Positions 3,233 through 56,350 of a stretch of 56,884 bases of DNA are shown piece by piece; the stretch's first letter is position 1; every line of letters starts with the position of its first letter. Made by a program: the position numbers and the translations under genes. Location: contig CAYQOX010000007.1 of NCBI GenBank assembly GCA_964419335.1, forward strand, positions 65,189 through 122,072. The letters are read 5' to 3'. The DNA comes from an uncultured bacterium (GTDB taxonomy: Bacteria; Hinthialibacterota; Hinthialibacteria; Hinthialibacterales; Hinthialibacteraceae). The notes below the pieces were generated by a model that did not search any database, was not told the DNA's origin, and was given only the letters and a program-made list of their open reading frames with translations.

Positions 3233-3243
3233 TTCCAGGCTTG

Positions 3244-5290: not shown

Positions 5291-5380
5291 TAGAGAGATG
5301 TACTATTGATTTGAACTATCTCATAACTACTGGTGCATCATCAATGATATTTTTTAAGCGAGTTACTACGTAAATTGGAT

Positions 5381-8188
5381 ATGATGAATTTATTTAATGA
5401 CCCCATAGCCATTGTTGGAATGGGATGTCGGTATCCAGATGGGGCAAATCTACCTCATTTATTGTGGACGATTCTCAAAGAAAAAAAAGACTGTATTACC
5501 GAGATACCAGAAGAGCGATGGGATTACAGAGATTATCATAATAGCGACAATTCTATTTCAAAATGGGGGGGATTTCTTCAAGGTATAAAACCGGATGAAT
5601 TCGATGCGGCGTTTTTTGGTATCGCCTCAGGTGAAGCCACCTCGCTTGATCCGCAACAGCGTTGGTTATTAGAAGTCTCGTGGGAAGCGTTGGAATATGG
5701 GGGGATCGATCCCCGTGAATTACGGGCTCGGAAGGTCGGCATTTATATCGGGATTAGTACGCATGACTACCTAAACGGGACGATCGCTTCTCAAGATCTC
5801 CAACGTATCTCCCATTATAGTGGAACAGGCTCTTCCTTTAGTACCGCTGCGGGAAGGCTGGCTTACTTTTATGGAACTTATGGGCCCGCACTGTCGCTTG
5901 ATACGGCTTGTTCTTCTTCTCTCGTGGCCTTTCATCAAGCCTGCCAATCATTGCGAATGGGGGAATGTGATATGGCTATCGTCGGGGGTGTTAATGCACT
6001 CTTGACGCCTCATTTGCATGTTTATCTGTCCAAATTAGGGGTGATGTCTCGAAAAGGACGATGCCAGTCTTTTGATCAGAGTGCTGATGGGTATGTGCGA
6101 TCAGAAGGATGCGGGGTGATGGTACTGCAACGATTGGCCGATGCGAGGCGTGAAGGTAGAACGATCTTGGCTCATTGCATTGGTTCTGCTGTGAATCAGG
6201 ATGGTCATGGTGCCAGTTTGACCGCTCCTAATGTATCGGCGCAGGAACAATGTATTCGTCAGGCTTTGCGACAAGCGAAGATTGATGCTCGCGAGGTTGG
6301 ATATATTGAAGCGCATGGTACTGGGAACCCTTTGGGGGATGCGACGGAATTACAAGCACTGGGAAGCGTTTTTGCTTCCGGGAGAGAGACGCCTTTATGG
6401 CTGGGGTCGGTCAAATCCAATATTGGACATCTAGAAGCAGGAGCAGGAGTCGCAGGATTAATCAAAACTGTGCTCATATTTCGTTACGGCATGATTCCCC
6501 CAAATCTTCATTTCAAGCAGCCGTGTGATGCATTTACTTCCTTGGATCAAGTATTTCGAATACCAAAAAACACTGTGGCTTGGGAGAGAAATAAGATTCC
6601 TAGGCGTGCGGGGATTAGTTCGTTTGGGTTTAGCGGAACGAATGCGCATGTCATCTTAGAAGAGCCGCATGATGAGGTTGAGAATAGAAAGCCATCGAAA
6701 AATTTCGAGGATCGACCGGTACATATCCTTACTTTCTCGGGAAAAAGTAAAAATGCTTTACACGAATCTGTATCTCAGGGACTGACATTTCTTGAAAAAC
6801 ACAATTGTTCACTCGCGGATGTGGGTTACACATTGAATGCCGGGCGGGCTCATTTTGCCCACCGGTTTGCAGTATGGGGGAATAGTGTAAATGATGTTAT
6901 TTCACAACTGAAAAATCGGTTATGGGAACAAACAGAGGTGGATCTTGCCAAAGAACTGGTTTTTACTTTCACTCCTTTAACCAAGCGCGATAAAGAAGGC
7001 GTGAAAGAATTCCTTCGTACGAGTCCTGTTTTCTATACAGAGTTCAAAAAATGGGATGATGTTACGCAATCAAAGGGGTTGAAATCTCTGTTCTTATATA
7101 TACAAAACGACGGAGATGCAGGCGGTTTGGAAGAAGAGTTCGTTCTTCAAACTTCACTGTTGTGTATATTGTTTTTACTGTGGAATTCGTGGGGGGTTGT
7201 ATCCAAAAAATTGATTGCTCAGCCCTCAACCTTACTTGCAGCACTGTACTGCAGTGAAATTATTACCATGGAAGAAACGGTGGAACTTTCTTGTTTTCTT
7301 TCTCAAGAAAACAAGCCCTTGTCAGATGAAAAACTCGCTTCAATTGGGCAAAGAAGTTCGCAGTTGACATTATTTTTTGATACACAGAAGGAATGTAATT
7401 TTAATCGGGCATGGTTAACAACACTGAAAGATCGTTTTACTCTTGATTTACAGCATTCACCTCATTTTCATAAAGAAGTTCATTTTGATTTACGCCTTGG
7501 CATGTGGAGTAAAGATGAAGTTTTGAGTTGGAATCTGATATCTAAAACGTTATGTGCGTTGTCAATGCAAGGTTGGGATATTAACTGGAAGGCTTTTGAT
7601 TCGCCTTATGAGCGCAACGTACTATGTGAAATGCCTACCTACCCATTTCAACGAAAAAAATATTACATCAATCCTATGGAGCCTTTATTGCAAAAGATTG
7701 TTAAACCGGTCAATCCAAAAAGAAACCTTGAAACGCAGGATATTCAAGAAAGGTTGTGTTCATGCATTAAAGGGAAGCGAGGTGAATATTTGAAAACTTG
7801 TATTCATGATACGGCCCTACATATTTTGGGGGATGTCACCTCGTTGGAATATGAACGTCCATTGGTCGAACAGGGATTTGATTCACTCACGGCGGTAGAA
7901 TTACGCAACCGCTTAGCGAAAGACTTGGAATTATCCTTACCGGTGACCCTGCTGTTTAATTATCCTACCATACAGGCCTTAGCGGATTATTTAATGGAAA
8001 TCATTCCATGGGACGATTGGACAAATGAAGGAAAGACAAAGCCGTCTGAGGAACAAGAGGAGTCGAATATGGAATCGATCCCGGATGAGCTTCATAAGAC
8101 TTTAACCGATGAAGAAATGAAACATCTTGATGGGTTGGATGATGAAGAATTAGAACAATGGATCAAAGACGATCTAGAATCAATTTGA
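5381..8188 (+). CDS. Type I PKS module: KS - degenerate AT (AT0) - ACP
   Basis: The ORF track start at 5375 is TTG; the first ATG is 5381. KS motifs: DTACSSS (Cys about 5909), EAHGTGN, NIGHLE. The post-KS region is homologous to a KS-AT linker plus AT, but GQGSQ is replaced by PLTKR and GHSIG by AQPST, and HAFH is absent. This indicates an inactive AT. ACP has GFDSL (Ser about 7883). Acidic C-terminal tail (DEEMKHLDGLDDEELEQWIKDDLESI) resembles a docking element. Confidence 0.9.
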   Translation: MMNLFNDPIAIVGMGCRYPDGANLPHLLWTILKEKKDCITEIPEERWDYRDYHNSDNSISKWGGFLQGIKPDEFDAAFFGIASGEATSLDPQQRWLLEVSWEALEYGGIDPRELRARKVGIYIGISTHDYLNGTIASQDLQRISHYSGTGSSFSTAAGRLAYFYGTYGPALSLDTACSSSLVAFHQACQSLRMGECDMAIVGGVNALLTPHLHVYLSKLGVMSRKGRCQSFDQSADGYVRSEGCGVMVLQRLADARREGRTILAHCIGSAVNQDGHGASLTAPNVSAQEQCIRQALRQAKIDAREVGYIEAHGTGNPLGDATELQALGSVFASGRETPLWLGSVKSNIGHLEAGAGVAGLIKTVLIFRYGMIPPNLHFKQPCDAFTSLDQVFRIPKNTVAWERNKIPRRAGISSFGFSGTNAHVILEEPHDEVENRKPSKNFEDRPVHILTFSGKSKNALHESVSQGLTFLEKHNCSLADVGYTLNAGRAHFAHRFAVWGNSVNDVISQLKNRLWEQTEVDLAKELVFTFTPLTKRDKEGVKEFLRTSPVFYTEFKKWDDVTQSKGLKSLFLYIQNDGDAGGLEEEFVLQTSLLCILFLLWNSWGVVSKKLIAQPSTLLAALYCSEIITMEETVELSCFLSQENKPLSDEKLASIGQRSSQLTLFFDTQKECNFNRAWLTTLKDRFTLDLQHSPHFHKEVHFDLRLGMWSKDEVLSWNLISKTLCALSMQGWDINWKAFDSPYERNVLCEMPTYPFQRKKYYINPMEPLLQKIVKPVNPKRNLETQDIQERLCSCIKGKRGEYLKTCIHDTALHILGDVTSLEYERPLVEQGFDSLTAVELRNRLAKDLELSLPVTLLFNYPTIQALADYLMEIIPWDDWTNEGKTKPSEEQEESNMESIPDELHKTLTDEEMKHLDGLDDEELEQWIKDDLESI
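6700..7640 (+). other. Degenerate acyltransferase (AT0) region inside PKS gene A
   Basis: Aligns block-by-block with the active AT of gene B (linker ILTFSGKSKNAL vs LLPLSARSENAL; VFTFTPLTKR vs VFLFTGQGSQ; IAQPSTLLAA vs VAGHSIGEYAA). The oxyanion-hole and GHSxG motifs are lost. The post-AT linker PTYPFQRKKYY is retained. Confidence 0.7.
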
Positions 8189-8197
8189 GGTGGTTTA

Positions 8198-11100
8198 ATG
8201 AATCAATCCAATGAAAGCCAAGTGCTAAAAAAAACCTATATTGCTTTAAAGAAAACCCAAAAGCGGGTGGAAGAATTAGAAAACGCCCAGCGTGAACCTT
8301 TAGCGATTATTGGCATGGCTTGCCGATTTCCCGGGGGAGGAAATACACCTGAAGCGTTTTGGGATTTGCTGAAGAATGGTGTCGATGCGAGTAGTGAGAT
8401 TCCTGAAGAACGGTGGAAATCACAAACTTTTTATCATCCTGAACCCGATACTCCTGGAACCACCCATGCTCATCGTGCGAACTTTCTAACATTACCAATC
8501 GATGAATTCGACGCTCCTTTTTTCAATATATCCGCCAAAGAAGCCCGGGCCATGGATCCCCAGCAGCGTTTGCTCATGGAAGTCTCTTGGGAAGCCATGG
8601 AAGATGCAGGATTAAATGTAAGTCGCTTAAATGGTAGTCGGACAGGGGTGTATGTGGGGATTTCCAGCGATGATTATTCGCTAGCGCATCGACATTCGGG
8701 AGATTATGGGCAAGTAGATGCCTATTCATTGACAGGAACGTGTTTTGCGCCCGCGGCGGGACGGCTTTCGTATTCCTTTGGTTTTGAGGGACCGTCTATG
8801 GCGGTGGATACAGCTTGTTCTTCCTCGCTGGTGGCATTGCATTTGGCTTGTCGGGGATTGAGAAATCATGAGATGGATATGGCTTTGGTCGGGGGAGTGA
8901 ATTTAATCTTAACTCCATCTTTCCATATTTGTTCAACCAAGTTAGGCACGATTTCACCTGATGGACGGTGTAAAACTTTTGATGCTTCGGCCGATGGCTA
9001 TGGACGCGGTGAAGGCTGCGGAATGGTCGTGATTAAGCGGTTATCAGATGCGGTTCGCGATGAGGATCCTATCCATGCGGTGATTCGTGGTACGGAGGTC
9101 AATCAGGATGGGAAGAGCAATGGCTTAACTGCCCCTAATGGACGTTCCCAAGAAAAAGTGATTCGTAGTGCGTTGGCGAATGCGGGATTATCTCCAGCGG
9201 ATATTAATTATGTTGAAGCCCATGGTACTGGAACCTCGCTGGGGGATCCTATTGAGGTGGAAGCGATTGCTCGCGTGATGGAAGAATCGCACACCCGAGA
9301 GAATCCCGTGTGGATCAGCTCCGTAAAAATCAACATTGGCCATTTGGAGGCCGCAGCGGGGATTTCTGGCTTATTTAAAGTTATTTTATCTATGCGGCAT
9401 GATACCTTGCCTCCACATTTTCACTTCAAAAATCCCAATCCTTATGTTGACTGGGAGCAATTGCCCGTAGAAGTCCCGACACAGCTAACTTCATGGCAAA
9501 GGAATGACAAACCTCGACGTGCTGGGATCAGCTCTTTTGGTTTTAGCGGGACCAATGCCCATGTCGTTGTGGAAGAGCCCCCATCGGTGAAAGAGGAGCA
9601 GGAAGGTCAGCAGCCGATAGAAATTCAAAGCAGGAAAGATCGGTCGTCTTGTCTCTTGCCTTTGTCGGCTCGTAGTGAAAATGCATTAAAAGCATTAGCA
9701 AAGAACTATGTCCGTTTTATAGAGCACAGTGATGTTTCGATTGCCGATATATGTCATACCGCAGGTGTGGGTCGTACCCATTTCAATTACCGTATTTCCG
9801 TAATTGGTAAAGATGCGGATGAAATCAAAACGAACTTGGAGGCGTATACCCAGGGGAAAAAGGCGGCAGGACTCAAGCAAAATGATGGGGTTTTATCTAA
9901 ACCCAAGGTGGTTTTTCTGTTCACTGGTCAGGGCTCACAATATGTAGGGATGGGTAAGGAACTTTATGATACATCGCCGGTCTTTCGAGATGCTATGGAT
10001 GCCTGCGATGCAGGTTTACGTCCCTATCTAAATGAGTCGCTTCTAGAGTTACTCTATAGCGAAGGCGCAGATGATACGCGGTTGACCCAAACTCAGTTTA
10101 CCCAGCCAGCGATCTTTGCCATAGAATATGCGTTAGCACAGCTTTGGATGTCGTGGGGGGTGATACCCGATAAGGTTGCGGGACATAGCATTGGAGAATA
10201 TGCAGCGGCGTGTATCGCGGGAGTTATGAGCTTAGAGGATACACTTCGCCTTGTTGCCGCAAGGGGAAGATTGATGCAATCACTTCCGGGTAATGGAACC
10301 ATGGCGGCAGTGTTTGCCCGGGAAGAAGACTTGCTCGCTCAGTTGGATTTCGAGGGGAAAGAAGTTTCCATCGCTGCTGTGAATGCGCCGGGTTCGGTTG
10401 TCCTTTCAGGAGAACGTGGACAAGTCCAGGAGATGATTGAGGAGTTAAAGAAGCGAGGAATCTCTGCGAAGCAACTTAATGTTTCCCATGCGTTTCATTC
10501 TCCATTAATGGACCCTATTTTGGATGAATTTAGACAGATTGCCAATGAGATCACTTATCATGATCCTGAAATTTCCATCATTTCGACCGTAAGGGGTGGA
10601 GAGATTCAGGATGGGGATTTCACCAGCGCCGAATATTGGACAGAACAAATTCGGAAGCCGGTACGTTTTTGTGAAGCGGGTGAGAGGTTAAGTTTGGATA
10701 GTTCTTCTCTCCTGCTTGAGATCGGGGCAATGCCGATTTTGGCAGGACTCATGAAGCGGATTGTGACAGAGGACACTTGTACCATTTTATATTCAATGAA
10801 AAAAGGCGAAGAGGAATGGAAAAGTTTGCTTCACGCGTTGGGTGAAGTTTATATTCATGGAATTGAAGTTGGTTGGCGGGCCTATGATCAAGCTTATAAA
10901 CGCAAGCGCGTATCCTTACCTTTTTATGCTTTTCAACGCAAAAACTTCTATATGAATCCGGTTCGAGAACAAGGCCCCGCCGGTGGCGGACACGCTTTCA
11001 CAGAGGATAGCCATCCCTATTTAGGTGAACGTATTGATAGTCCCATTATGGGAGAAGATTCTACCTTATTTCAGGCTTTGTTTAGCGAGCCGTGGCCTGA

Positions 11101-14100
11101 CTTTTTACGTCAGCACAAGATTTTTGGGAAGATTATTTCTCCCGGGGCGGCGCATTTGTGTATGGCTTTATCGGCTTGGCGTAATGAAAAGGGGAACGAG
11201 CCTTGTGTTTTAGAAAATGTTGATTTGACGGCTCCTTTGGTGGTCGATGAGGAAGAAAAGCGTAAGGTTCAATTAATTTTGGAAAATAAGCTGGATTCAA
11301 AAGCGGAGTTTCGTCTGTTGAGTAAAGAGGCGGGACAACGAAAAGGAACGTGGATCCTACATTGTAATGGAAATGTTCACAATCTTTTGGAAGACGAAAC
11401 AAACTCTGAGCCGCTGCCGCTGGAAGAAATCCGAACCCGTTGTGATGAGGATATGACGGCGGAAGAATTGTATCAATATATTGAAAATGTGGGGTATAGC
11501 GTCGGCCCGTTATTCCAGTGCGTGCGCGAGATTCATAAGGGAGATAACGAGGCTTTGTGTATTGTGAGGAACGTGCATGAGGTAGATGAAATGGCGGTAT
11601 ATCCCGGATTGGTCGACTCGTTTTTGCAGACAGTTCTGCCTGCGTTGATGAAAAATGATCGCGGTATGCTGGATGGCGAGCATGTCCTGATTCCCCTGCA
11701 TTTTAAAAAGATCCAATTTCAAAAAAGTTTAGATGGAGATTTATATTGTCATACCCAGGTTGCATTGATGGAGGATGCTATCAAAGCCCAAATTCGGATT
11801 GCAGATCCGAGTGGAAACGTGGTTTTGGAAATTGAAGATTTCCTTCTTAAATATACTGATCGCAATACCCTCTACCGCGATTTGCGGGAAGACTTTCATA
11901 AACTCATTTATCTTACCCAGTGGGACGAGATACGCCCTCGAGAGAAAGAACATGTTTCCAGTACGGGACTCTCTTACTCTCTCGTTTTGGATGACGGTCA
12001 TGGTTTTGGACAGACTCTTGTGAATACGATTCGAACCCAAGGTGGGAATTGTATTCATGTTCTTCTTGGGGAGACTTTTGAGCAGAAAGCCAAGGATACT
12101 TATGTAGTCAATGCGAACCAGGAAGATGATCTTTCACAAATTTTCCATGAAGCCATTAAACATAAAGGGGATACACCCATTCACCTTTTGTGTTGCCTGG
12201 GTATCAAAGATGGTCATATTCATGAAATCGATGCCAATGGACTAGAATTCGCAGAGCAAATAATTATTCAGCCTTTGCTATCGGTTTTCCATCAATTGCA
12301 TTCTCAAAATGTAACTGATCATTTTAAACTTTGGTGTTTCACCGAAAAAAGTCAGCGCACTCATCTGGAGGATGGTACGATTCAACTCGCAACTTCTCCC
12401 CTATGGGGATTAGGGCGAACCATGGAAATGGAATTCCCTGAAATGTGGGGGGGGATGATCGATGTCGATGCCAACCTACCGGCAACAGCGTTTGCAACAG
12501 TGCTGGCTCATATCGAAGAACCAAATCACGAAAATCAGATTGCCGTGCGCCAGAATGGGCGGATATATGGTGCGCGCTTAATCCCGATGAAAAAGAGACG
12601 CGAGGAGTCTTCTCGGGAAGAATTGCCGCTGCCCTCCTGTTCGAAAGATGAAGGTATTTATTTGGATACAGGAAATAAAGGGACGCTCGATGAATTGAAC
12701 TTCAAAAAACGCTCACGACGCGAACCGCAAGCGAATGAAGTCGAAGTACACATTTATGCCTCAGGTCTGAATTTTCGTGATGTGCTTAATGTCTTGGGGC
12801 AGTACCCCGGTGACGCGGGATTTATGGGCTATGAGGCGGCAGGAATTGTGACCCGTACCGGATCTCTCGTGAGTGAATTTCGAGAGGGAGACGGGGTGAT
12901 TGTCATGGATGCACCGGGATGCATTTGTGATTACATGACCTGCGATTTGAATTGCGTGATGAAGATCCCCGCGGGGATGAATTTCTATGAAGCCGTTACA
13001 TTACCCGCTACCTTTTTGACGGCTTATTATGCCTTAGAAAAATTGGGACATGTGCGAGAAGGCGATAAAGTGTTGATCCATGCCGGAGCCGGCGGAGTGG
13101 GGATGGCCGCGGTCCAATTATGCCTGGATGCAGGGGCTGAAGTCTTTGCTACGGCAGGTTCGGATAAAAAACGCGCCTTATTGAAAGATATGGGAGTACA
13201 TCATGTGATGAATTCCCGCACACTTGAATTCGCGGATGAGATCCACACGATTACTCAAGGCCAGGGTGTCGATGTGGTGTTGAATTCCTTATCGGGCGAT
13301 TTTATTGAAAAGAGTTTTGAAGTCTTGGCCAAGCATGGACGCTTTTTAGAGATGGGAAAGATCGAGATTTGGAACGAGTCTCAGGTTCGTGCGAAAGATC
13401 CGAGTTATTCGTATTATCCCTTCGATCTCTCTACGGTCTCGCGTGAGAATCCCGGCTATGTCAAAGAATTGTTCCACGAGCTCTTGCCAAGATTTGAAAG
13501 CCAGTCTTTGACTGCCTTGCCCTATACTGTTTTTCCTATGCGACGTGCGAAAGAGGCGTTTCGTTACATGGCTCAAGCCAAGCATATAGGGAAAATTGTG
13601 CTTTCACGTTTGGAGGATATTCGTCGGGATGAAAGAGAAACCTTGGGAGTTGTTCGTTCGGATGCCACTTATTTAATTACCGGTGGTTTGGGGGCGTTAG
13701 GTTTGCAAGCAGCCCGGTGGTTGGCTGAAGAAGGAGCTCAACATATCGTGTTGACTAGTCGCAGTGATCCTAAGCCAGAGGTGGAAGCAATATTGCAATC
13801 GTTGCAGCAACAAGGCATTGAGATTGAGGTTATGCGGGGGGATGTGGCACACGAAGAGGATGTGCAACGTATAATCCAACGCATTCGGACTGAGATGCCC
13901 CCGCTGAAAGGAATTCTTCATGCCGCGGGAGTCTTAGATGATGGGATGTTAGGAGAACAAACTTGGGAACGTTTTAAAAAAGTAATGGCACCGAAGGTAC
14001 GTGGCGCTTGGAATCTGCATCGGGCTACCCGTAATGTGTTGTTGGACTTTTTCGTGATGTATTCTTCGGTGGCCTCGTTGTTAGGGAACTTAGGACAAAG

Positions 14101-14830: not shown

Positions 14831-14881
14831 TATCGGTTAAAACTGGAATATTTATTATTGGATTGATGGCAGAAGGACATA

Positions 14882-30649: not shown

Positions 30650-33600
30650 GACAACAAACGTCATCACCAAAGAAAGCGTTCAACGCATTTACCCTTTGCG
30701 ACCTATGCAAAAGGGAATGCTTTTTCATTCCTTACACGATTCGGAAAAGGCTTTTTATTTTGAGCAGATCCGTTATCGCTTGAGGGGAAATTTAGATGTT
30801 GCCCTATGTGAGCAAGTTTGGAATGAATTAATGCGGCGCCATGAACTGTTGCGCTCTGTGTTTGTAAGTCAAAAAGTTTCTCAACCCGTTCAGATTGTTT
30901 TGAAGCACCGGCAGGTAGATTTTACGTACAAAGATTTGCGGTATTTATCGGATGAGGAATGCCAATCTTATATTGATGATACATTATTTCATGAAAGACA
31001 ACGTGGTTTCGATCTAAGCCGGGATGCACTAGTGCGTATCTATATTTTTCAATGTGACGATCATACCTATGAGATGGTTTGGAATTATCCCCATATTTTG
31101 CTGGATGGATGGTCGGGATCGATTTTACAATCAGAGTTTATTGAGTTATATGAAGCTTATTGCACTGGAAGAGCACCCGATTTAAACCCTCCAGCAGATT
31201 ATAATGACTATCTGGATTGGTGCGAAAATAACGATCGGCAAGAAGATCTCCGTTACTGGCAGCATCTTTTACAAGGGTATGATTTTGTGGCCACGGTTCC
31301 GCAGTGGAATAAGCAAAACCATGGACAATCGTATGAACCGAGCGAGTATTCTTTTCGTTTTGACCACGATACAACCGAAGCTTTGCTTCGACTTGCGAGG
31401 CGTTTGCAGTGCACCCTGAATGTATTACTCCAAACAATGTGGGGTGTAATCTTAGGGCGCTATAACCAAAGTAGCGACGTGGTTTTTGGAGTCGTCGTTT
31501 CTGGCCGGCCTCCTGAAGTAACAGGCATCGATCGCATGGTGGGGTTATTTATTAATACCTTGCCGCTTCGGGTGCGTGTAGAATCCAATTCAACATTCAA
31601 TGAATTAATTCAAGAAATACAAGAGCAATCTTTAGCGAACCAAGAACATGATTCTTTATCGCTCGCAGAGATTCAAAATGAAATTCAAACGACAGACACT
31701 CTTTTAGATCATCTTTTTGTTTTTGAAAATTATCCCATGGATCAACGTTTGGGAGAGCGAGTCAATCTCTCCACAGTTGGATTTGAAGTGGAATCCACAG
31801 AGATGTTCGAACAAGTAAATTATCCCTTTGGGATGATGGTTTTACCTGGTGAAGAACTACAAATATCCTTTCGCTATGATGAGCAAGTTCACACGTATGA
31901 ACAAATGCGATGGATGGAGGGACATTGGCGTGCTCTAACAGCTCAGATTCTTGAGGATCCAGAATTCACTGTTCAAGAATTGACCATTCTTTCCGAAACT
32001 GAAAATCGCAAGGTATTGTATGAATTTCAAGGAAAGTTTGTGGATTACCCACGATATAAAACATTAGTTGATCTTTGGGAAGAGCAGGTAGCGAAAACCC
32101 CTCAAAATATTGCCCTTCGAATGGATAGGAAGGCCTTGACTTATGTTGAACTGGATCAATTAGCGAATGGGGTAGCGCATAACCTTCGTATCCACCATGG
32201 AATAAAACCGGAAAAGCGGATTGGGGTTTTATTGCCCCGTGGCTTTGATTTCATGATTTCGTTGTTAGGGATTCTCAAAGCAGGAGGCGTTTATGTCCCT
32301 ATGGATCCGAACTATCCGAGCGAAAGAATACAATTCATCGTAGAAGATGCCCAGTGTGAGGTGTTGCTAGTTACAGAGGACTCGGATTTGAACTTAACGG
32401 ACACGAATGTAAGTCAGGTCGTTCCCATTCGTACGCTTATGAAAAAAGTGAAAGCTATACCTGAGCTCTCTCTCTCAAGCGACAACTTGGCATACATGAT
32501 ATATACTTCCGGTTCAACCGGGCAGCCCAAAGGGGTGATGCTCGAACATCGTGGTTTTATCAACATGATCCAAGAGCAAATTTGCGCTTTTGGAGTAAGC
32601 GAAAAGGATCGTGTTTTACAATTCGCTTCCTGTTCATTTGATGCTTCACTTTCAGAAATATTCATGGCGCTTTTAAGCGGGGCATGCTTGGTACTTGTTG
32701 AAGAAGAATTAATCCGCGATGCGAATCGTATGTCGTCCTTTATGGATGAGGAGGGAATCACTGTCGTTACATTCCCACCCTCTTACTTACGGGCTATGGA
32801 GAAAAGGGATTTTCCCTCGCTGCGGGTGATGATTACCGCAGGCGAGTCTTTGCATGAAGAAGATGCGATTTACTATGCCGCCCGTTTACGATATTTCAAT
32901 GCTTATGGCCCGACAGAAACATCCGTGTGCGCTACGTATGTTGAACTTGATCCTGCAAACTTACAGCATCAGCCCGCTTCAATTGGACACCCCATCGCCA
33001 ATACCCAAATACTGATTCTAGATTCATCTCTTCAGCCTGTTCCTTTAGGAGTTGTGGGTGAGATCTGTATCGCAGGAGAGGGTGTGGCGCGGGGATATTG
33101 GAATCGCCCTGATGAAAACGAAAAGAAATTTATTGAGCACCCATTTATTCATGAGGGGAAACTCTATTGTACTGGTGACCTGGGGCGATGGCTTGAAAAT
33201 GGGTGTATTGAGTTTCTTGGGCGTAAAGATTCTCAAGTAAAGCTCCATGGCTACCGTATTGAACTGGGAGAAATTGAAAAACAGATTCAACGTGTATCTG
33301 AGATACAACAAGCGGTTGTGCGGATTATCGAACGGGAAGGGGAGAAGAAAGAACTTATCGCTTATTACGTGGCTAGCCGTGAGATCCAAAAAAATGATCT
33401 TTACGCTGTACTACGTAAATCGCTACCCGCGTATATGATCCCGAGTGATTTTATTTCACTGGGTGAGTTTCCTCTGACGCCAAATCTGAAAATTGATTAT
33501 AAGCGCTTACCCGATCCCCGCGAGAGCGTTCGTCAACTAAAAGAGGTTACCGCCCCTCGAAATTCAAGCGAAGCAGAGATGGTCCAAATATGGGAACAGG

Positions 33601-35069
33601 TTTTGTCACGCAAACCAATTGGCATCCATGACTCATTTTTTGATCATGGGGGGCATTCTCTTCTCGCCATTCAACTTGTGGGACAAATGGGAAAATCGGG
33701 ATTTTCAATACCACTGAAAACCCTTTATGAGTATCCTACCATTGCTCAACTTGCTGAGCATCTTAATGCCATAACAGAAAAGCAATATGATTCGATAGTA
33801 CATGGGCGTTTTAAACTAACGCCAATTCAACGCTGGTTTTTCCAAAGCCGTCGTCATGGCCATCATCATTTCAACCATTATGCTTTGCTAGAAGCCAACA
33901 ATGAGATTGATGTGGAAGTGTTACAACGTGCCTTAAAAAAACTGTGGCTTCATCATGATGGTTTACGTTCACGTTTTGATTTCTGCAATGATGATGTTGA
34001 TCAGATCATTGAAGATGATACATTCTCAATGCCATTCGATGTAGTTGATTTGCGTAAGCACAGTGATGCATGGCCGTATATGATAAATCGCATAGAAGAG
34101 GAACAAACTTCGTTGTGTTTAGAAACAGGGCCTTTGTGCAGACACATTCTGTTTCGTCTATCCGAAGGGGATTATTTCTTTTGGTTAATCCACCATCTTA
34201 TTACGGATGCCATATCTTGGAATATATTGTTCGAGGATCTAGAAGAGGCCTATCATCAGTCTTTCTCCGGTATCCCCATATCCCTTCCACCCAAAACGTC
34301 TTCCTATCAACAATGGGCAGAAGCCTTAAATCAATACGCAGTACATGAAAATGTATTACAAGAAAAACCTTTTTGGCAAAGGATCGAAGAAACCTATGTT
34401 TCTCCTTTGCCTCTGTCCAATTTAAATCCAGATCCTATAAATGTATATGGCGACAGCCATACACTAACATGTTCTTTCCCGCTGGAAAAAATAAATGAGA
34501 CATTTTATGAATCACCCGCATCATATATCTTGAGTGCGATAGGCTATTCTCTTTATGAATGGAGCGGGAATCAAATGTACCGAGTTCTTATGACTCATCA
34601 TGGGCGGGATTCCCCATGGACTTCATTGCAAGTTCATCGAACTGTTGGTTGGTTTACAGTGTATTATCCCTTATTGTTAAATTTATATCCATCCAAGAGA
34701 AAAGATGAGTTATATCAAAAAATACGCGATTGGATGAATCAAGTACCTCACTGTGGGATAGGGTATGGTATTCTTCGTTATCTTAGCCCTATGGAAGATA
34801 CGAACAATATGGAGTGGTCGTCACCTTCCATTTTGTTTAACTATATGGGTGAAATTTTTTCAAAGCGCAGAGAAGGTTTATTTGTTCTTTGCGAAGAGCA
34901 TTCCGGCGCTTCTCTTTCGCCTATAATGGAACGCCCTTTTTTATTAGAAATTGATGCGATGATTCGGGATAATCATATTGATATTCATTTGAGTTACAAT
35001 CAACAAATACATAGTAATGACAGTATTCAAAAAATAAAATGGGGTATAAAAAAGCATTTGCCATATTAA
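30642..35069 (+). CDS. NRPS module: C(DCL-type)-A(Tyr)-PCP-terminal E-like domain; no TE
   Basis: The ORF track start at 30624 is TTG. The ATG at 30642 overlaps the stop of the previous gene (ATGAATAGG), consistent with translational coupling. C: RPMQKGMLFHSL and YPHILLDGWS (first His replaced by Pro). A code DASTIAAVCK. PCP: GGHSL (about 33650). Terminal domain has PIQRWFF (33822), HHLITDAISW, RTVGWFT, GIGYG and FNYMGE, which are E-domain-like motifs. The protein ends at 35069 with no thioesterase. Confidence 0.9.
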   Translation: MNRTTNVITKESVQRIYPLRPMQKGMLFHSLHDSEKAFYFEQIRYRLRGNLDVALCEQVWNELMRRHELLRSVFVSQKVSQPVQIVLKHRQVDFTYKDLRYLSDEECQSYIDDTLFHERQRGFDLSRDALVRIYIFQCDDHTYEMVWNYPHILLDGWSGSILQSEFIELYEAYCTGRAPDLNPPADYNDYLDWCENNDRQEDLRYWQHLLQGYDFVATVPQWNKQNHGQSYEPSEYSFRFDHDTTEALLRLARRLQCTLNVLLQTMWGVILGRYNQSSDVVFGVVVSGRPPEVTGIDRMVGLFINTLPLRVRVESNSTFNELIQEIQEQSLANQEHDSLSLAEIQNEIQTTDTLLDHLFVFENYPMDQRLGERVNLSTVGFEVESTEMFEQVNYPFGMMVLPGEELQISFRYDEQVHTYEQMRWMEGHWRALTAQILEDPEFTVQELTILSETENRKVLYEFQGKFVDYPRYKTLVDLWEEQVAKTPQNIALRMDRKALTYVELDQLANGVAHNLRIHHGIKPEKRIGVLLPRGFDFMISLLGILKAGGVYVPMDPNYPSERIQFIVEDAQCEVLLVTEDSDLNLTDTNVSQVVPIRTLMKKVKAIPELSLSSDNLAYMIYTSGSTGQPKGVMLEHRGFINMIQEQICAFGVSEKDRVLQFASCSFDASLSEIFMALLSGACLVLVEEELIRDANRMSSFMDEEGITVVTFPPSYLRAMEKRDFPSLRVMITAGESLHEEDAIYYAARLRYFNAYGPTETSVCATYVELDPANLQHQPASIGHPIANTQILILDSSLQPVPLGVVGEICIAGEGVARGYWNRPDENEKKFIEHPFIHEGKLYCTGDLGRWLENGCIEFLGRKDSQVKLHGYRIELGEIEKQIQRVSEIQQAVVRIIEREGEKKELIAYYVASREIQKNDLYAVLRKSLPAYMIPSDFISLGEFPLTPNLKIDYKRLPDPRESVRQLKEVTAPRNSSEAEMVQIWEQVLSRKPIGIHDSFFDHGGHSLLAIQLVGQMGKSGFSIPLKTLYEYPTIAQLAEHLNAITEKQYDSIVHGRFKLTPIQRWFFQSRRHGHHHFNHYALLEANNEIDVEVLQRALKKLWLHHDGLRSRFDFCNDDVDQIIEDDTFSMPFDVVDLRKHSDAWPYMINRIEEEQTSLCLETGPLCRHILFRLSEGDYFFWLIHHLITDAISWNILFEDLEEAYHQSFSGIPISLPPKTSSYQQWAEALNQYAVHENVLQEKPFWQRIEETYVSPLPLSNLNPDPINVYGDSHTLTCSFPLEKINETFYESPASYILSAIGYSLYEWSGNQMYRVLMTHHGRDSPWTSLQVHRTVGWFTVYYPLLLNLYPSKRKDELYQKIRDWMNQVPHCGIGYGILRYLSPMEDTNNMEWSSPSILFNYMGEIFSKRREGLFVLCEEHSGASLSPIMERPFLLEIDAMIRDNHIDIHLSYNQQIHSNDSIQKIKWGIKKHLPY
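32030..33520 (+). other. Adenylation domain A4, predicted Tyr
   Basis: FDASLSE (D A S), VTFPPS (T278), ITAGES (I299 A301), NAYGPTETSVC (A322 V330 C331). The code is DASTIAAVCK, which I recall as a Tyr code. Confidence 0.6.
33810..35066 (+). other. Terminal E-like (condensation-superfamily) domain at the end of the assembly line
   Basis: PIQRWFF, HHLITDAISW (same spacing as E2 HHLVVDGISW but with Gly replaced by Ala), THHGRD, RTVGWFT, CGIGYGILRYL, FNYMGE. No downstream C domain or TE. Confidence 0.65.
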
Positions 35070-35144
35070 TTAAAGTTAAAAGTATGTACAATATTTATTT
35101 GTCTTATTATATGGACCATCTTAAATAATGAAGGGAAAAAGCCA

Positions 35145-36728
35145 ATGAAAAAACTTTGTAGGTATGTACTGTGGGGTTCTGTTTTTTTTGTTTTCACAAC
35201 CGTAATGGGGATTGGTTTTGCTTTTGCTAGTTCAAATGCATTGCCTTACAAACCTTTTCCAGCAAAATGGCAAGCGGAAATGCAGCATATAGTGGATGAA
35301 GGTGAGATACCCGGAGCCGTAATCGTGATTAAATCCCCCGAATGGGGGGTCCGGGTTGGTACTGCCGGCCATGCCAATTTAGCCGAAGAAACTCCCATGT
35401 CACCTGATTTACAGTTCCGGGTTGGAAGTGTTACAAAATCATTTACAGCTTTGACGCTTTTACAGATGGAACAAGAAGGATTGATTCAATTGGACGATAC
35501 GGTTGATATGTATTTGACCGGGGATAAATCGTTACAAGAAAATGCTCATATTATCACCATTAAAGATTTACTGCAGATGGAATCAGGACTCGAGGATTAT
35601 GTCGCCCATCCCGAAATCCAATCGATGATGAACGCGAATCCAATGACGGTCTTCTCACCCGTAGATCTTCTAAACTACGCTAATTCAATGCCTACCTTAT
35701 TTGCACCGGGTGATACCTATCCGAATCCCTACCAGGTCATGTTATGGGGTGTTGATGAAAGTGCAGCCGAGCCGCTCCCTTATTGGTACTATACCAATAC
35801 CAACTATCTTTTGCTTGGACTGATCATCGAAGAACTATCGGGGCAATCGCTGGCCGAAGAAATGAATCAGCGAATTATGGAACCCTTGGGACTAGAGGAT
35901 ACTTACTTGGCTGAAGAAGGCAATGTCCCCGATGATTTTATGCGTGGTTATGTTAAAACCGATAAGTTATATAATCCCACCCAGCAATTAGAAGAATGGC
36001 GAGACGTGACTGAAACCCATCCTTCTTATGCCTGGTCTGCGGGAGCCGTTATCTCGACTCCCTGGGATCTTTTGCGCTATCTCGAATCCCAGTTTGAAGA
36101 AGAAATATTGATTAACAAAGGAACGAAAAAGAAATGGCTGAATTTTGTCTCAGCCGATATTAAATGGAGTAATGTGGAGTATGGGGTCGGCGGTTTGATG
36201 CAAAGTCAGCGAACGTATGGTGATTGCCGCGGTCATGGAGGCGCTATCCCCGGATATAAAACCTTATTATATTATTTCCATGATGATGAAACCTCGTTTG
36301 TCCTTAGCGCCAATACTTGGGATGGTCATGCAGAGATCGATTTGCTGGATGCGATTATGCCGATGGTGTTGGATCAACACGCAACCTATCCTCTGCCAGA
36401 AGACCAATCTGCAGATGTCGGTTTTAGCGAGAATGGTGGTGTTGCTCTTTCTTGGCAGCCGGGTACGATCTACGGCGATCAATATCGTGTTTACATCGGC
36501 CTGAATGAAGCGGATGTAGAAGCGGCTGATGAATCCTCTTCCGAAGTAGAACAACTTTTAATTCAAGATGAAACGGAAACCGTCGTTATGGAATTAGAAG
36601 ACAATACGACATACTACTGGCGTGTAGATACCATTTCAAATAATCAGGGTACCTTTCCCGGACCGGTATGGTCTTTCACTACGGGAGAAAAGGAAGGTTC
36701 ACCTGTCGCCCAGTGGAAAGATATGTAA
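35145..36728 (+). CDS. Beta-lactamase/PBP-fold serine hydrolase (PF00144-like) with C-terminal beta-sandwich extension; candidate trans-acting release/cyclase enzyme or esterase
   Basis: ATG at 35145 with AAGGGAAAAAG upstream. The N-terminal hydrophobic segment MKKLCRYVLWGSVFFVFTTVMGIGFAFASS looks like a signal peptide or anchor. SxxK motif in FRVGSVTKSF, YxN in YYTNTNYLL, and a KTG-like GYKT further on. About 150 aa C-terminal extra domain. Only 75 nt downstream of the last NRPS gene, on the same strand. Confidence 0.8.
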   Translation: MKKLCRYVLWGSVFFVFTTVMGIGFAFASSNALPYKPFPAKWQAEMQHIVDEGEIPGAVIVIKSPEWGVRVGTAGHANLAEETPMSPDLQFRVGSVTKSFTALTLLQMEQEGLIQLDDTVDMYLTGDKSLQENAHIITIKDLLQMESGLEDYVAHPEIQSMMNANPMTVFSPVDLLNYANSMPTLFAPGDTYPNPYQVMLWGVDESAAEPLPYWYYTNTNYLLLGLIIEELSGQSLAEEMNQRIMEPLGLEDTYLAEEGNVPDDFMRGYVKTDKLYNPTQQLEEWRDVTETHPSYAWSAGAVISTPWDLLRYLESQFEEEILINKGTKKKWLNFVSADIKWSNVEYGVGGLMQSQRTYGDCRGHGGAIPGYKTLLYYFHDDETSFVLSANTWDGHAEIDLLDAIMPMVLDQHATYPLPEDQSADVGFSENGGVALSWQPGTIYGDQYRVYIGLNEADVEAADESSSEVEQLLIQDETETVVMELEDNTTYYWRVDTISNNQGTFPGPVWSFTTGEKEGSPVAQWKDM

Positions 36729-38654: not shown

Positions 38655-38699
38655 AGGTGTGAATCCTTGTGTTTTTTTCTTGGTGATAGAATCCAATAA

Positions 38700-40151: not shown

Positions 40152-40194
40152 AATGGGTTGCTCCTGTCTGTAGTCAAGGATCATTTGAATGCGA

Positions 40195-46693: not shown

Positions 46694-46768
46694 TTTTCTT
46701 TTAGCTATCTTTGTATCAAATGATTTGTTGTTGCTCGTATACGACAATATTTGTTTAAATGGAAGAGT

Positions 46769-49536: not shown

Positions 49537-49542
49537 GGTCTT

Positions 49543-56346: not shown

Positions 56347-56350
56347 GCGT

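What the first reader, a model, noticed from the sequence alone, without database searches (positions are those of the whole stretch)
5381..36728. TE-less cis-AT PKS/NRPS assembly line predicted to build a beta-amino-acyl tetrapeptide
Four co-directional megasynthase genes (about 9,900 aa in total) use linear PKS-to-NRPS logic. The KS-AT-ACP-AMT unit is the beta-amination architecture known from mycosubtilin/iturin, microginin and puwainaphycin. Several accessory elements of those systems are absent here: a fatty-acyl-AMP ligase or acyl ligase, an N-methyltransferase or oxygenase domain, a TE domain and an MbtH protein. The number and order of modules (3 PKS + 4 NRPS), the internal and terminal E or E-like domains, and one unassignable A-domain code do not match any lipopeptide family I recognise. 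This suggests an undescribed beta-amino-acid lipopeptide, likely [beta-amino acyl]-(D?)Thr-X-D-Phe-Tyr.
Basis: partly seen in the sequence, partly recalled or inferred. Interest (0 to 1): 0.85.

Follow-up and report, generated by a model that had tools for sequence, protein, structure and literature searches.

The report
Orphan TE-less beta-amino PKS–NRPS cluster family
This is a real, intact gene cluster for a small peptide that begins with a polyketide-made beta-amino acid. It belongs to an uncharacterised cluster family found from Omnitrophota to Magnetospirillum, which lacks the usual starter and release enzymes. In every member sampled it carries a secreted D-peptidase-like hydrolase, and in nearly all an amidotransferase too.

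Summary
Four co-directional genes (5375-35069, 9,883 aa) encode KS-AT°-ACP | KS-AT-DH-ER-KR-ACP | KS-AT-ACP-AMT-C-A(Thr)-PCP-C-A(unknown)-PCP-C-A(Phe)-PCP-E | C-A(Tyr)-PCP-E*. The window contains no TE, acyl ligase, MbtH, methyltransferase or oxygenase.

- Module 1 has only a vestigial AT.
- The terminal E-like domain (E*) has lost the catalytic Glu in all 8 family members examined.
- The last 1.6 kb of the interval is a fifth gene. It encodes an S12 (beta-lactamase-fold) serine hydrolase with a Sec signal peptide.
- The S12 gene follows the last NRPS gene in 7 other sampled loci, including Magnetospirillum molischianum. An AsnB-type amidotransferase accompanies it in 7 of 8 and a SyrD/PvdE-type ABC exporter in 4. 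SPFH, DUF697, ParA-like, SBP and lipoprotein genes recur in the members whose flanks can be read.

The S12 enzyme is closest to R61 DD-peptidase and alkaline D-peptidase, not to SurE. I therefore read it as an extracytoplasmic processing or protection enzyme rather than the missing off-loading cyclase.

Chain initiation and chain release remain unexplained. This is a new variant of a known kind. It is moderately to highly interesting because the family is widespread, orphan and experimentally reachable.

The parts
185..928 (+). ParA/MinD-like P-loop ATPase. The likely true start is the Met at about 275.
   Evidence: Pfam AAA_31/CbiA/ParA. NCBIfam ParA_partition scores 155 bits, below its cutoff. 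Orthologues of 59-64% identity occur in L005 and L017.
811..1476 (+). DUF697 membrane protein, copy a
   Evidence: Pfam DUF697. It is 52% identical to copy b. Orthologues occur in L005, L017 and L020.
1480..2139 (+). Sfp/HetI-type 4'-phosphopantetheinyl transferase
   Evidence: Pfam ACPS plus AASDHPPT_N. NCBIfam AusB/HetI-like hits are below cutoff. Orthologues occur in L005 and L017.
2129..3232 (-). SPFH/Band 7 membrane protein, copy a
   Evidence: Pfam Band_7 at 2.8e-26. It is 54% identical to copy b. Orthologues occur in L005, L017 and L020.
3244..4890 (-). ABC exporter with fused permease and ATPase, copy a (SyrD/PvdE-type)
   Evidence: NCBIfam TIGR01194 'cyclic peptide export ABC transporter' scores 311.9 bits against a cutoff of 286.2. 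It is 46% identical to copy b.
5375..8188 (+). PKS module 1: KS (5399-6514, Cys-His-His intact), vestigial AT° (6917-7744), ACP (7820-7993). There is no N-terminal docking region.
   Evidence: GQGSQ, GHSxG and HAFH are all lost. AT° is only 36% identical to its closest orthologue, against 69% for ACP1.
8198..14830 (+). PKS module 2: KS-AT(malonyl)-DH-ER-KR(B-type)-ACP, fully reducing
   Evidence: Pfam. Motifs present: GHSIG/HAFH, HxxxGxxxxP, GAGGVG, LDD and YAAAN.
14882..30649 (+). Hybrid protein. PKS module 3 is KS-AT(malonyl)-ACP followed by the AMT (18500-19480). Then come three NRPS modules: C1(LCL)-A1(Thr)-PCP, C2(DCL-type)-A2(DVRHIALLAK)-PCP, and C3(LCL)-A3(Phe)-PCP-E (29264-30646, canonical EGHGRE).
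30624..35069 (+). Last NRPS module: C4(DCL)-A4(Tyr)-PCP-E*. E* spans 33807-35066. It keeps HHLITDA, but EGHGRE has become THHGRD. There is no C-terminal docking tail.
35145..36728 (+). Exported S12 (beta-lactamase-fold) serine hydrolase. It has a Sec-type signal peptide (residues 1-29, AFA|SS) and a catalytic domain with SVTK, YxN and HGG. It also has a C-terminal FN3-like beta-sandwich (residues about 414-513).
   Evidence: No terminator separates it from gene D, and an RBS-like GAAGGGA lies upstream.
36786..38696 (-). AsnB-type glutamine-dependent amidotransferase. The likely true start is MCGITG at 38654, giving 622 aa.
   Evidence: Pfam GATase_7 plus Asn_synthase. NCBIfam TIGR01536 scores 477.8 bits against a cutoff of 267.1. 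The Ntn Cys and the SGGxDS PP-loop are kept in all 7 orthologues, which are 58-75% identical.
38700..40331 (-). Periplasmic solute-binding protein. The ORF is over-extended at its 5' end, and a signal peptide is present.
   Evidence: Pfam SBP_bac_8/SBP_bac_6. N-terminus shown. Orthologues occur in L005 and L020.
40195..41277 (-). SPFH/Band 7 membrane protein, copy b
41274..42902 (-). ABC exporter, copy b
43206..43766 (-). DUF697 membrane protein, copy b
44008..45195 (+). Conserved lipoprotein of unknown function. It has a lipobox (LMNGC) and a coiled-coil-like middle. It marks the probable right border of the cluster.
   Evidence: No Pfam hit. N-terminus shown. Orthologues of 35-55% identity sit beside DUF697 in L005, L017 and L020.

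Best explanation
The region is a complete hybrid PKS-NRPS biosynthetic gene cluster (about 185-45195) belonging to a widespread, uncharacterised family.

Shown by sequence:
- An Sfp-type PPTase is encoded, which would prime seven carrier domains.
- Docking tails and heads order the proteins A>B>C>D.
- Module 1 has an intact KS and ACP but a dead AT.
- Modules 2 and 3 use malonyl units. Module 2 reduces fully. Module 3 leaves a beta-keto group that the in-line PLP aminotransferase can convert to a beta-amine.
- Four NRPS modules add Thr, an unknown residue (code DVRHIALLAK, conserved in the family), Phe (followed by a canonical E domain) and Tyr.
- The line ends in an E-family domain that has lost its catalytic Glu.

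Inferred:
- KS1 is primed directly by a small acyl thioester, and ACP1 is charged in trans by AT2, AT3 or FabD.
- Because module 1 has no KR, the acyl part would be a short 3-amino-7-oxo-acyl unit rather than a fatty acid.
- The peptide leaves PCP4 without a canonical TE. The catalyst is unknown. The candidates are the conserved E* domain or an unlinked hydrolase.
- One of the two SyrD/PvdE-type ABC exporters pumps the peptide out.
- Outside the cytoplasm the peptide meets the co-transcribed, Sec-exported S12 D-peptidase-like hydrolase. That enzyme trims or matures it, or detoxifies it for self-protection. This is the logic known from PvdQ, ClbP and the BogQ/TriF resistance peptidases.
- The AsnB-type amidotransferase amidates a carboxylate of the product. 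None of the three assignable A-domain codes is Asn-type.
For: Architecture and motifs:
-.
- C1 is LCL-type and C2 is DCL-type by PDB neighbours.
- Docking logic.

Family conservation:
- The order C-A-PCP-E*, then S12, is found in L001, L002, L005, L006, L017, L019 (Magnetospirillum molischianum) and L020. An AsnB gene lies next to S12 in all of these except L006.
- The ABC, Band7, DUF697, ParA, PPTase and lipoprotein genes have orthologues in L005, L017 and L020, where each is within the fetched flanks. An SBP orthologue was found in L005 and L020 only.
- About 95 database clusters of the S12 protein score above the gap to Bacillus ADP-like proteins.
- The Tyr code, HHxxxDA and the Glu-to-Thr/Ser change in E* are invariant in 8 of 8 members.
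- The A2 code DVRHxA[IL]L recurs in L005 and L020.

S12 enzyme:
- An N-terminal basic, hydrophobic, AxA signal is present in all ten closest homologues and in the proteobacterial ones.
- The AlphaFold model has pLDDT 92, with an N-terminal helix, the catalytic domain and a beta-sandwich.
- The best sequence and fold neighbours are alkaline D-peptidase, R61 DD-peptidase, D-stereospecific amidohydrolase and D-amino-acid amidase. SurE ranks 21st and ClbP 30th.
- Literature: BogQ and TriF are cluster-encoded S12 peptidases that cut after D-residues, and TriF cuts after a D-aromatic residue (PMC8127968). Lip3 and Lip7 are Sec-exported S12 DL-peptidases (PMC12903863).

Other components:
- The exporter passes the TIGR01194 cutoff and AsnB passes the TIGR01536 cutoff.
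- AsnB keeps its Ntn Cys and PP-loop.
Against: - Release from PCP4 is not explained by any gene in the window.
- An S12 gene directly after a TE-less NRPS that ends in an E-type domain is exactly the signature of SurE-type off-loading.
- The signal peptide was judged from charge, hydropathy and AxA pattern plus conservation, not with a dedicated predictor.
- The internal E domain after Phe is absent in L005, L019 and L020. D-Phe therefore cannot be the universal S12 recognition element.
- Loss of the E-domain Glu lowers GrsA activity only about 6-fold (PMC8905534), so E* may still epimerise.
- The starter unit, the A2 substrate, the S12 cleavage site and the AsnB substrate are all unknown.
- No product has been observed.
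- MIBiG could not be queried.
Confidence: 0.55

Rival explanations
1. The S12 protein is the missing release enzyme. On this view it is a SurE/PenA-like PBP-type thioesterase. It would take the peptide from PCP4 via a C-terminal D-Tyr set by E*, and close a head-to-tail macrolactam with the beta-amine.
For: - There is no TE anywhere in the window.
- The line ends in an E-family domain.
- The S12 gene is the next gene, apparently co-transcribed, and is invariably linked across the family.
- The catalytic SxxK/YxN/HxG set is intact.
- E-domain Glu loss is not necessarily inactivating.
- PenA shows that such enzymes can make cyclic pentapeptides (PMC9113502).
Against: - A Sec-type signal peptide is conserved in every homologue inspected. 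A thioester on a cytoplasmic megasynthase is out of reach of an exported enzyme.
- The C-terminal domain is an FN3-like sandwich. PBP-type TEs carry a lipocalin domain (PMC9113502).
- SurE is a distant neighbour: 39.8 bits against 125 bits for alkaline D-peptidase, and Foldseek rank 21 at 19% identity.
Confidence: 0.15
2. The terminal E* domain is itself the release catalyst. It would be a condensation-superfamily domain repurposed for hydrolysis or macrocyclisation, comparable to fungal CT domains. S12 and AsnB would act only afterwards.
For: - E* is full length and keeps the HH..D active-site motif and E motifs E1 and E5-E7.
- It has replaced the epimerase Glu by Thr or Ser in 8 of 8 members.
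- It is always the last domain, and the protein has no docking tail.
- No other cytoplasmic hydrolase is conserved in the family.
Against: - All close structural and sequence relatives are bona fide epimerases.
- E* evolves faster than C4 and A4: 31-52% against 38-64% identity.
- I know of no precedent for release by an E-clade domain.
- A more distant relative, L021, carries a discrete type II TE next to its PKS genes. Release may therefore depend on a trans TE that is simply unlinked here.
Confidence: 0.15
3. The cluster is decaying or non-functional in this organism, as suggested by the dead AT1 and the crippled terminal E domain.
For: AT° has lost every catalytic motif and evolves fast. 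E* lacks its Glu.
Against: - All four giant ORFs (9,883 codons) are uninterrupted.
- Every other catalytic motif is intact.
- The same two 'defects' are conserved features of the family. AT1 is absent altogether in L014 and L021, and E* is altered in 8 of 8 members.
Confidence: 0.04

Closest known systems
Mycosubtilin/iturin synthetases (MycA-C plus FenF)
   Same: A KS-ACP-aminotransferase unit fused in one protein to the first C-A-PCP module turns a beta-keto thioester into a beta-amino acyl starter of a peptide. E domains give D-residues (PMC4219810).
   Different: The iturin systems start with an acyl-AMP ligase domain, use a trans-AT, have seven NRPS modules and end in a TE that closes the ring on the beta-amine. 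Here there is no ligase and no TE. Two extra PKS modules precede the AMT module, only four NRPS modules follow, and an exported S12 hydrolase and AsnB are added.
Puwainaphycin/minutissamide synthetase (PuwB-PuwH) and microginin synthetase (MicACDE)
   Same: In puwainaphycin, a fully reducing PKS module is followed by a hybrid KS-AT-ACP-AMT-C-A-PCP protein. Microginin is also a short linear peptide, with an N-terminal beta-amino acid and (from my own knowledge) C-terminal Tyr residues. Its cluster combines one PKS module, an aminotransferase and three NRPS modules (PMC2739229).
   Different: Puw has a FAAL plus ACP loader, a C-methyltransferase, a monooxygenase and a terminal TE. None of these is present here. 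Those clusters are cyanobacterial, whereas this family is found in Omnitrophota, Proteobacteria and Acidobacteriota-type MAGs.
SurE/PenA PBP-type thioesterase systems (surugamide, pentaminomycin)
   Same: A TE-less NRPS ends in an E-type domain and is partnered with a stand-alone S12-fold enzyme carrying SxxK/YxN/HxG.
   Different: SurE-type enzymes have a PBP domain plus a lipocalin domain. By alignment coordinates they have no N-terminal extension. The enzyme here has a signal peptide and an FN3-like domain, is closer to DD- and D-peptidases, and the E domain has lost its Glu.
Cluster-encoded or secreted S12 D-stereospecific peptidases: BogQ/TriF (resistance), ClbP (prodrug activation), Lip3/Lip7, alkaline D-peptidase
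   Same: An S12 catalytic domain that is exported and genetically or functionally tied to D-residue-containing non-ribosomal peptides. The best sequence and fold neighbours belong to this functional group.
   Different: There is no N-acyl-D-Asn prodrug module and there are no C-terminal transmembrane helices as in ClbP. Identity to any characterised member is 28% or less. The strict pairing with a Tyr-PCP-E* module, usually with AsnB as well, has not been described.
Pyoverdine pathway logic (PvdE exporter plus periplasmic PvdQ)
   Same: A cytoplasmic NRPS product is exported by an ABC transporter of the TIGR01194 family and then matured by a periplasmic hydrolase. The comparison rests on established knowledge; exporter family membership was tested.
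   Different: PvdQ is an Ntn hydrolase, not an S12 enzyme. Pyoverdine NRPSs have a TE.

Membership tests
Beta-amino-acyl lipopeptide synthetases (iturin/puwainaphycin type) | PKS module with an in-line class-III aminotransferase, fused to the first NRPS module | tested here: met
   KS-AT-ACP, then Aminotran_3 (1.2e-52, residues 1207-1533, YGK PLP lysine present), then C-A-PCP, all in gene C.
Beta-amino-acyl lipopeptide synthetases (iturin/puwainaphycin type) | Fatty acyl-AMP ligase or acyl ligase plus ACP loader that brings in a fatty acid | tested here: not met
   AMP-binding hits occur only in the four NRPS A domains. Related loci L014 and L019 also show no ligase next to module 1. PMC4219810 regards FAAL plus AMT as characteristic of the class.
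Beta-amino-acyl lipopeptide synthetases (iturin/puwainaphycin type) | Terminal thioesterase domain that cyclises or releases the product | tested here: not met
   No PF00975, PF12697 or PF00561 hit in any ORF of at least 150 aa. Gene D ends in an E-like domain.
PBP-type thioesterase (SurE-like) off-loading system | NRPS without a TE whose last module ends in an E domain | tested here: inconclusive
   The TE is absent and the last domain belongs to the E family. Its catalytic Glu is Thr here and Thr or Ser in 8 of 8 members. Glu loss reduces GrsA activity only about 6-fold.
PBP-type thioesterase (SurE-like) off-loading system | Cytoplasmic stand-alone S12 enzyme able to reach the PCP thioester | tested here: not met
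   An N-terminal basic, hydrophobic, AxA signal sequence is conserved in all homologues inspected. Judged by eye and hydropathy, not with SignalP.
PBP-type thioesterase (SurE-like) off-loading system | C-terminal lipocalin-like substrate-binding domain | tested here: not met
   The model shows a seven-to-eight-strand sandwich at residues 414-513. It gives weak fn3 and Pur_ac_phosph_N hits (also in homologues). The lipocalin requirement is taken from PMC9113502.
S12 D-stereospecific peptidases (alkaline D-peptidase / DD-peptidase / DRP group) | SxxK, YxN and HxG catalytic motifs on a beta-lactamase fold, with nearest neighbours in this group | tested here: met
   SVTK, YTNTNY and HGG are present. 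4y7p scores 3e-35. The Foldseek top hits are R61, ADP, DAH and D-amino-acid amidase, with TM-target 0.81-0.89.
S12 D-stereospecific peptidases (alkaline D-peptidase / DD-peptidase / DRP group) | Hydrolysis at the carboxyl side of a D-residue | not testable with these tools
   This needs an enzyme assay with D/L peptide variants.
ClbP-type prodrug activation | First NRPS module C-A(Asn)-PCP-E that makes an N-acyl-D-Asn cap, and a peptidase with C-terminal transmembrane helices | tested here: not met
   The line starts with PKS modules. No A-domain code is Asn-type. The S12 protein ends in a soluble beta-sandwich. ClbP is Foldseek rank 30.
Cyclic peptide export ABC transporters (TIGR01194; SyrD/PvdE type) | Whole-protein score above the curated cutoff | tested here: met
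   311.9 bits against a cutoff of 286.2 for ORF 3244-4890. The paralogue at 41274-42902 is 46% identical.

The most novel reading that the evidence does not exclude
The invariant pair of Tyr-PCP-E* and the exported S12 enzyme, with the AsnB-type amidotransferase that accompanies them in 7 of 8 loci, may form a new post-export ring-closing route. On this reading the peptide is released with a C-terminal (D-)Tyr. The amidotransferase spends ATP to convert that carboxylate into a primary amide, and the amide is exported. The periplasmic S12 enzyme then uses the D-Tyr amide as acyl donor. This is the aminolysis chemistry known for D-stereospecific amidohydrolases and DD-transpeptidases. It would close a macrolactam on the N-terminal beta-amine. 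The result would be SurE-like chemistry moved outside the cytoplasm and driven by an amide instead of a thioester.
Probability: 0.08. Interest if true: 0.85.

Novelty: new variant of a known kind. Interest (0 to 1): 0.6.

Why it matters
- Beta-amination PKS-NRPS lines are known, but all characterised ones load a fatty acid with an acyl-AMP ligase and finish with a TE.
- This family does neither. It is nevertheless conserved across very distant bacteria, from Omnitrophota-type MAGs to Magnetospirillum molischianum. Both its initiation and its release or maturation logic are therefore likely to differ from the textbook.
- The strict linkage of a Glu-less terminal E domain to an exported D-peptidase-like enzyme, usually with an amidotransferase as well, gives a concrete, testable handle on how TE-less assembly lines finish their products.
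- A cultured family member makes genetics and LC-MS feasible.
- It would also give a first natural product for lineages with almost none known.

Tried and rejected
1. The genome-contig scan with gene A returned only PKSs of 40% identity or less. The whole-gene-A homologue search was swamped by generic KS proteins. Only the AT°-ACP fragment found orthologues (P0241, P0242).
2. Exact look-ups of the window's proteins gave no names or accessions, so the source organism stays unidentified.
3. The 1.8-billion-protein HMMER search with E* was dominated by giant multi-E NRPSs and identified only one orthologue (P0433). It did not help to define an E* clade.
4. AsnB as a beta-lactam-synthetase-like enzyme acting on the beta-amino acid was rejected. 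The Ntn Cys (MCG) and glutaminase domain are intact in all orthologues, and the protein passes the asparagine-synthase model.
5. AsnB as an Asn supplier is unlikely. None of the three assignable A-domain codes is Asn-type, although A2 is unassigned.
6. C2 as a dual E/C domain: no N-terminal HH motif was seen. It groups with DCL domains, so the configuration of Thr stays open.
7. The small ORF 4876-5085 upstream of gene A looks non-coding.
8. The metagenome scan with KS2-AT2 yielded one plausible relative (L021, 62% in the best segment). The remaining hits were generic KS-AT proteins of about 50% identity.

Full report
**Observation**

The window has four large co-directional ORFs on the + strand: 5375-8188 (937 aa), 8198-14830 (2210 aa), 14882-30649 (5255 aa) and 30624-35069 (1481 aa), 9,883 aa in all.

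Pfam gives these domains:
- A: KS and ACP.
- B: KS, AT, DH, ER, KR, ACP.
- C: KS, AT, ACP, a class-III aminotransferase, then three Condensation/AMP-binding/PP-binding sets and a fourth Condensation-type domain.
- D: C-A-PCP plus a second Condensation-type domain.

Domain borders were refined by intra-cluster phmmer and converted to window coordinates. E-values of 1e-40 to 1e-299 exclude chance.

**PKS part**

KS1, KS2 and KS3 all keep the Cys-His-His set.

AT2 and AT3 carry GHSIG and HAFH, the malonyl signature. The DH has HxxxGxxxxP and DxxxQ. The ER has the GAGGVG nucleotide site. The KR has LDD (B-type) and the YAAAN tyrosine.

The 300 residues between the KS1 linker and ACP1 have the length and remnants of an AT, such as LWNSWGV. 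They have lost GQGSQ, GHSxG (now QPSTL) and HAFH. They give no Acyl_transf_1 hit even at E<=10.

Against the closest relative (L013) this stretch is 36% identical, compared with 69% for ACP1 and 74% for the start of gene B. The former serine position is not conserved.

In Magnetospirillum molischianum the equivalent protein has an intact malonyl-type AT (L019). In L014 and L021 the AT region is missing altogether, leaving 746-aa KS-ACP proteins. Module 1 is thus a KS-ACP pair whose cis AT is dispensable.

KS1 begins at residue about 10, with no docking head. B and C have docking heads of about 30 aa, and A and B have acidic tails. A is therefore the first protein, and nothing in the cluster loads it.

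KS1 orthologues are only 47-51% identical to one another, while KS2 orthologues are 68-72% identical. Module 1 is the most variable part of the family.

**NRPS part**

Stachelhaus residues were read by aligning to a GrsA segment that I recalled from memory, which reproduces the published DAWTIAAIC code. They give A1 DFWNIGMVH (Thr), A2 DVRHIALLA (no assignment), A3 DAWTVAAIC (Phe) and A4 DASTIAAVC (Tyr). The amino-acid assignments rest on my knowledge of published codes.

C1 and C3 group with LCL domains; the best PDB hit of C1 is TycC6 at 286 bits. C2 and C4 are 41% identical to each other. The best PDB hits of C2 are all C domains that follow an E domain: BacC, SrfA-C, TycB1 and McyB, at 250-348 bits.

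C4 follows the canonical E domain of module 3. That E domain has PIQHWF, HHFMVDG, EGHGRE, RTAGWFT and FNYLGQ. C2 follows the Thr module, which has no E domain, and C2 shows no dual-E/C HH motif.

A-domain lengths and the 84-aa AMT-to-C1 gap leave no room for methyltransferase or oxygenase domains.

**Missing accessory elements**

No thioesterase or alpha/beta-hydrolase family, and no further AMP-binding enzyme, was found in any ORF of at least 150 aa across the window. A six-frame pattern scan found no MbtH signature.

**Terminal domain**

The last 420 residues of D match only epimerisation domains strongly: BacC, TycB, GrsA, TycA and PvdL E domains, at 5e-67 to 1e-52. The domain keeps E1, E2 (as HHLITDA), E5, E6 and E7. 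EGHGRE, however, reads THHGRD.

Eight family members were examined: the window, L001, L002, L005, L006, L017, L019 and L020. In all of them the motif is HHxxxDA plus [T/S]xHGRx. The Glu loss is therefore an old, conserved feature.

Mutagenesis summarised in PMC8905534 reports that the His mutant of GrsA is dead, while E892A loses only about 6-fold activity. I therefore do not call E* inactive.

E* is less conserved than C4 and A4 but remains full length. D has no acidic docking tail, unlike C, so D is the last protein.

**The overlooked fifth gene**

ORF 35145-36728 lies 75 nt after D. No terminator-like site intervenes, and an RBS-like GAAGGGA lies upstream. It encodes a 527-aa Beta-lactamase-family (S12) protein with SVTK, YxN and HGG motifs.

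Its N-terminus is MKKLCRYVLWGSVFFVFTTVMGIGFAFA|SSN: a basic n-region, a hydrophobic core with mean hydropathy up to 1.7, and an AxA site. The same design is present in all ten closest homologues. In proteobacterial homologues it is often followed by a Pro/Ala-rich linker before the conserved SN(A/V)LPY(K/R)PFP start of the mature domain.

An AlphaFold model built on a 43-sequence alignment has pLDDT 92.4. It shows helix 2-26, the catalytic domain and a C-terminal beta-sandwich at residues 414-513. The sandwich gives weak fn3 and Pur_ac_phosph_N matches (the same families are precomputed for homologues).

By sequence, the best solved relatives are alkaline D-peptidase (3e-35) and D-Ala-D-Ala carboxypeptidases, including the R61 enzyme. 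An S12 peptidase and D-amino-acid amidase follow. SurE scores 1.9e-9 and ClbP 6e-8.

By fold, R61, alkaline D-peptidase, D-stereospecific amidohydrolase and D-amino-acid amidase lead, with TM-target 0.81-0.89. SurE is rank 21 and ClbP rank 30. No NCBIfam model reaches its cutoff.

**A family, not a singleton**

Seven other loci that encode homologues of the S12 protein were inspected:
- L001, 70% identity, GCA_014728855.1.
- L002, 66%.
- L005, 51%, on a 1.8-Mb contig.
- L006, 48%, from a Candidatus Omnitrophota MAG.
- L017, 47%.
- L020, 48%.
- L019, 46%, Magnetospirillum molischianum.

In all seven the S12 gene sits close downstream of a C-A-PCP-E* gene: directly after it in six, and with asnB between them in L002. 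That gene is preceded by a protein of about 5,300-5,700 aa that starts KS-AT-ACP-Aminotran_3, wherever that part is visible. An Asn_synthase gene lies next to S12 in every one except L006.

In L019 the gene order is C, D, S12, AsnB, A, B, so the gene set is kept although the order is permuted.

The ABC exporter, Band 7, both DUF697 proteins, the ParA-like ATPase, the PPTase and the 395-aa lipoprotein all have orthologues in L005, L017 and L020, at 35-65% identity, where these lie within the fetched flanks. An SBP orthologue was found in L005 and L020 only. That places the right border of the cluster near 45195.

In the homologue table, about 95 clusters at 90% identity score between 1e-256 and 1e-66. 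Below that there is a drop to 720-aa Bacillus alkaline-D-peptidase-like proteins. Named sources include Shumkonia, Azospirillaceae, Rugamonas/Duganella, Methylumidiphilus and Thermoanaerobaculia.

Within the family:
- The A4 code is Tyr-type in all 8 members.
- A3 is Phe-type in 7 of 8.
- The unusual A2 code recurs as DVRHGAIL and DVRHLALL.
- The E domain after Phe is present in five members but absent in L005, L019 and L020.

**Other accessory genes**

ORF 3244-4890 passes the curated cutoff of TIGR01194, 'cyclic peptide export ABC transporter'. The amidotransferase passes TIGR01536.

The amidotransferase's real start is MCGITG. All seven orthologues keep the Ntn cysteine and the SGGxDS loop, and they are 58-75% identical. 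It is therefore a working glutamine-dependent, ATP-dependent carboxylate amidotransferase, not a beta-lactam-synthetase-like cyclase.

The window carries two paralogous ABC/Band 7/DUF697 sets flanking the core.

**How it most likely works**

Shown: the domain order, the docking order and the substrate signatures described above.

Inferred:
- KS1 is primed directly, and ACP1 is charged in trans.
- Three malonyl extensions follow, with no reduction in module 1, full reduction in module 2 and transamination in module 3. This gives a short 3-amino-7-oxo-acyl unit: C8 if the primer is acetyl.
- Its free amine and ketone could also form a six-membered cyclic imine.
- The unit is extended to beta-aminoacyl-Thr-X-D-Phe-Tyr.

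Release has no assigned catalyst.

The only conserved enzyme positioned like an off-loading partner is exported. Its nearest relatives are secreted D-stereospecific peptidases, amidases and transpeptidases. I therefore place it after export by the SyrD/PvdE-type pump, as a maturation or self-protection hydrolase.

The precedents are BogQ and TriF, which are cluster-encoded and cut after D-residues, TriF after a D-aromatic one (PMC8127968). Lip3 and Lip7 are Sec-exported S12 DL-peptidases (PMC12903863). ClbP and PvdQ I cite from established knowledge.

The amidotransferase probably amidates a product carboxylate. This could be the C-terminus or the side chain of residue X, whose pocket carries an Arg at position 239.

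**Rivals**

- SurE-like off-loading fits the genetics but fails on localisation, domain composition and relatedness.
- Release by E* itself is compatible with its conserved His-only active site but has no precedent.
- A more distant relative (L021) has a discrete type II TE and a stand-alone aminotransferase beside its KS-ACP gene. This hints that a trans TE may do the job and may simply be unlinked here.
- Decay is unlikely, given 9,883 uninterrupted codons and the family-wide conservation of the 'defects'.

**Comparison and novelty**

The cluster works like the iturin, puwainaphycin and microginin beta-amination lines. It fails two of their defining features, the FAAL loader and the TE.

It resembles PBP-type-TE systems genetically but fails two of three defining features.

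Full-text searches found no description of this cluster family:
- Magnetospirillum BGCs.
- AMT, beta-lactamase and asparagine synthetase co-occurrence.
- Omnitrophota BGCs.
- Microginin-type clusters.

MIBiG could not be queried. I rate the finding a new variant of a known kind, with interest 0.6.

Noticed in passing
window 2129-4890 and 40195-43766: Two paralogous sets of ABC exporter, SPFH/Band 7 protein and DUF697 protein (46%, 54% and 52% identity) flank the megasynthase genes in inverted arrangement. Related clusters carry one ABC and one Band 7 gene. Pairing an SPFH scaffold protein with an NRPS exporter is unusual and unexplained.
   Followed up: partly
window 185-1476; L005 13580-14867; L017 15581-16812: A ParA/MinD-like ATPase followed by a DUF697 membrane protein is conserved next to the PPTase gene in this cluster family. 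Its role in a biosynthetic cluster is unknown.
   Followed up: partly
window 44008-45195: A 395-aa predicted lipoprotein with no Pfam family gives only weak SMC-like coiled-coil matches. It is conserved beside DUF697 in L005, L017 and L020 and probably belongs to the cluster.
   Followed up: partly
window 22913-24166 (C2): A DCL-type condensation domain follows the Thr module, which has no E domain. Related C-proteins lacking the Phe-module E domain have the same length (5269 and 5276 aa). Others are about 460 aa longer (5713 and 5737 aa). An E domain after Thr may therefore exist in relatives and have been lost here.
   Followed up: no
L021 4474-7475: A more distant relative has its KS-ACP, KS-AT-DH-ER-KR-ACP and KS-AT-ACP-AMT genes preceded by a stand-alone class-III aminotransferase and a type II thioesterase (PF00975, 2.3e-38). 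A 227-aa ORF without a Pfam family and two ABC transporters also lie there.
   Followed up: partly
window 38700-40331: The solute-binding-protein ORF is over-extended at its 5' end and so overlaps the Band 7 gene. A signal peptide (LLFGFLFFLLTSISFAQE) starts about 70 codons in, and orthologues are 455-471 aa.
   Followed up: no
window 45248-56884: The genes downstream look unrelated to the cluster. They include a 499-aa protein with a weak WalK-like N-terminus, a 785-aa HAMP-domain protein and a 1086-aa MFS-HEAT-repeat-cNMP-binding fusion. A PrmC-like methyltransferase and a SET-domain protein complete the set.
   Followed up: no
window 1-56884: GC content is 37-49% and is highest across the PKS genes. 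GC skew is positive throughout. The exact proteins occur in NCBI on one unnamed 122,072-bp contig, so the source organism could not be named.
   Followed up: partly
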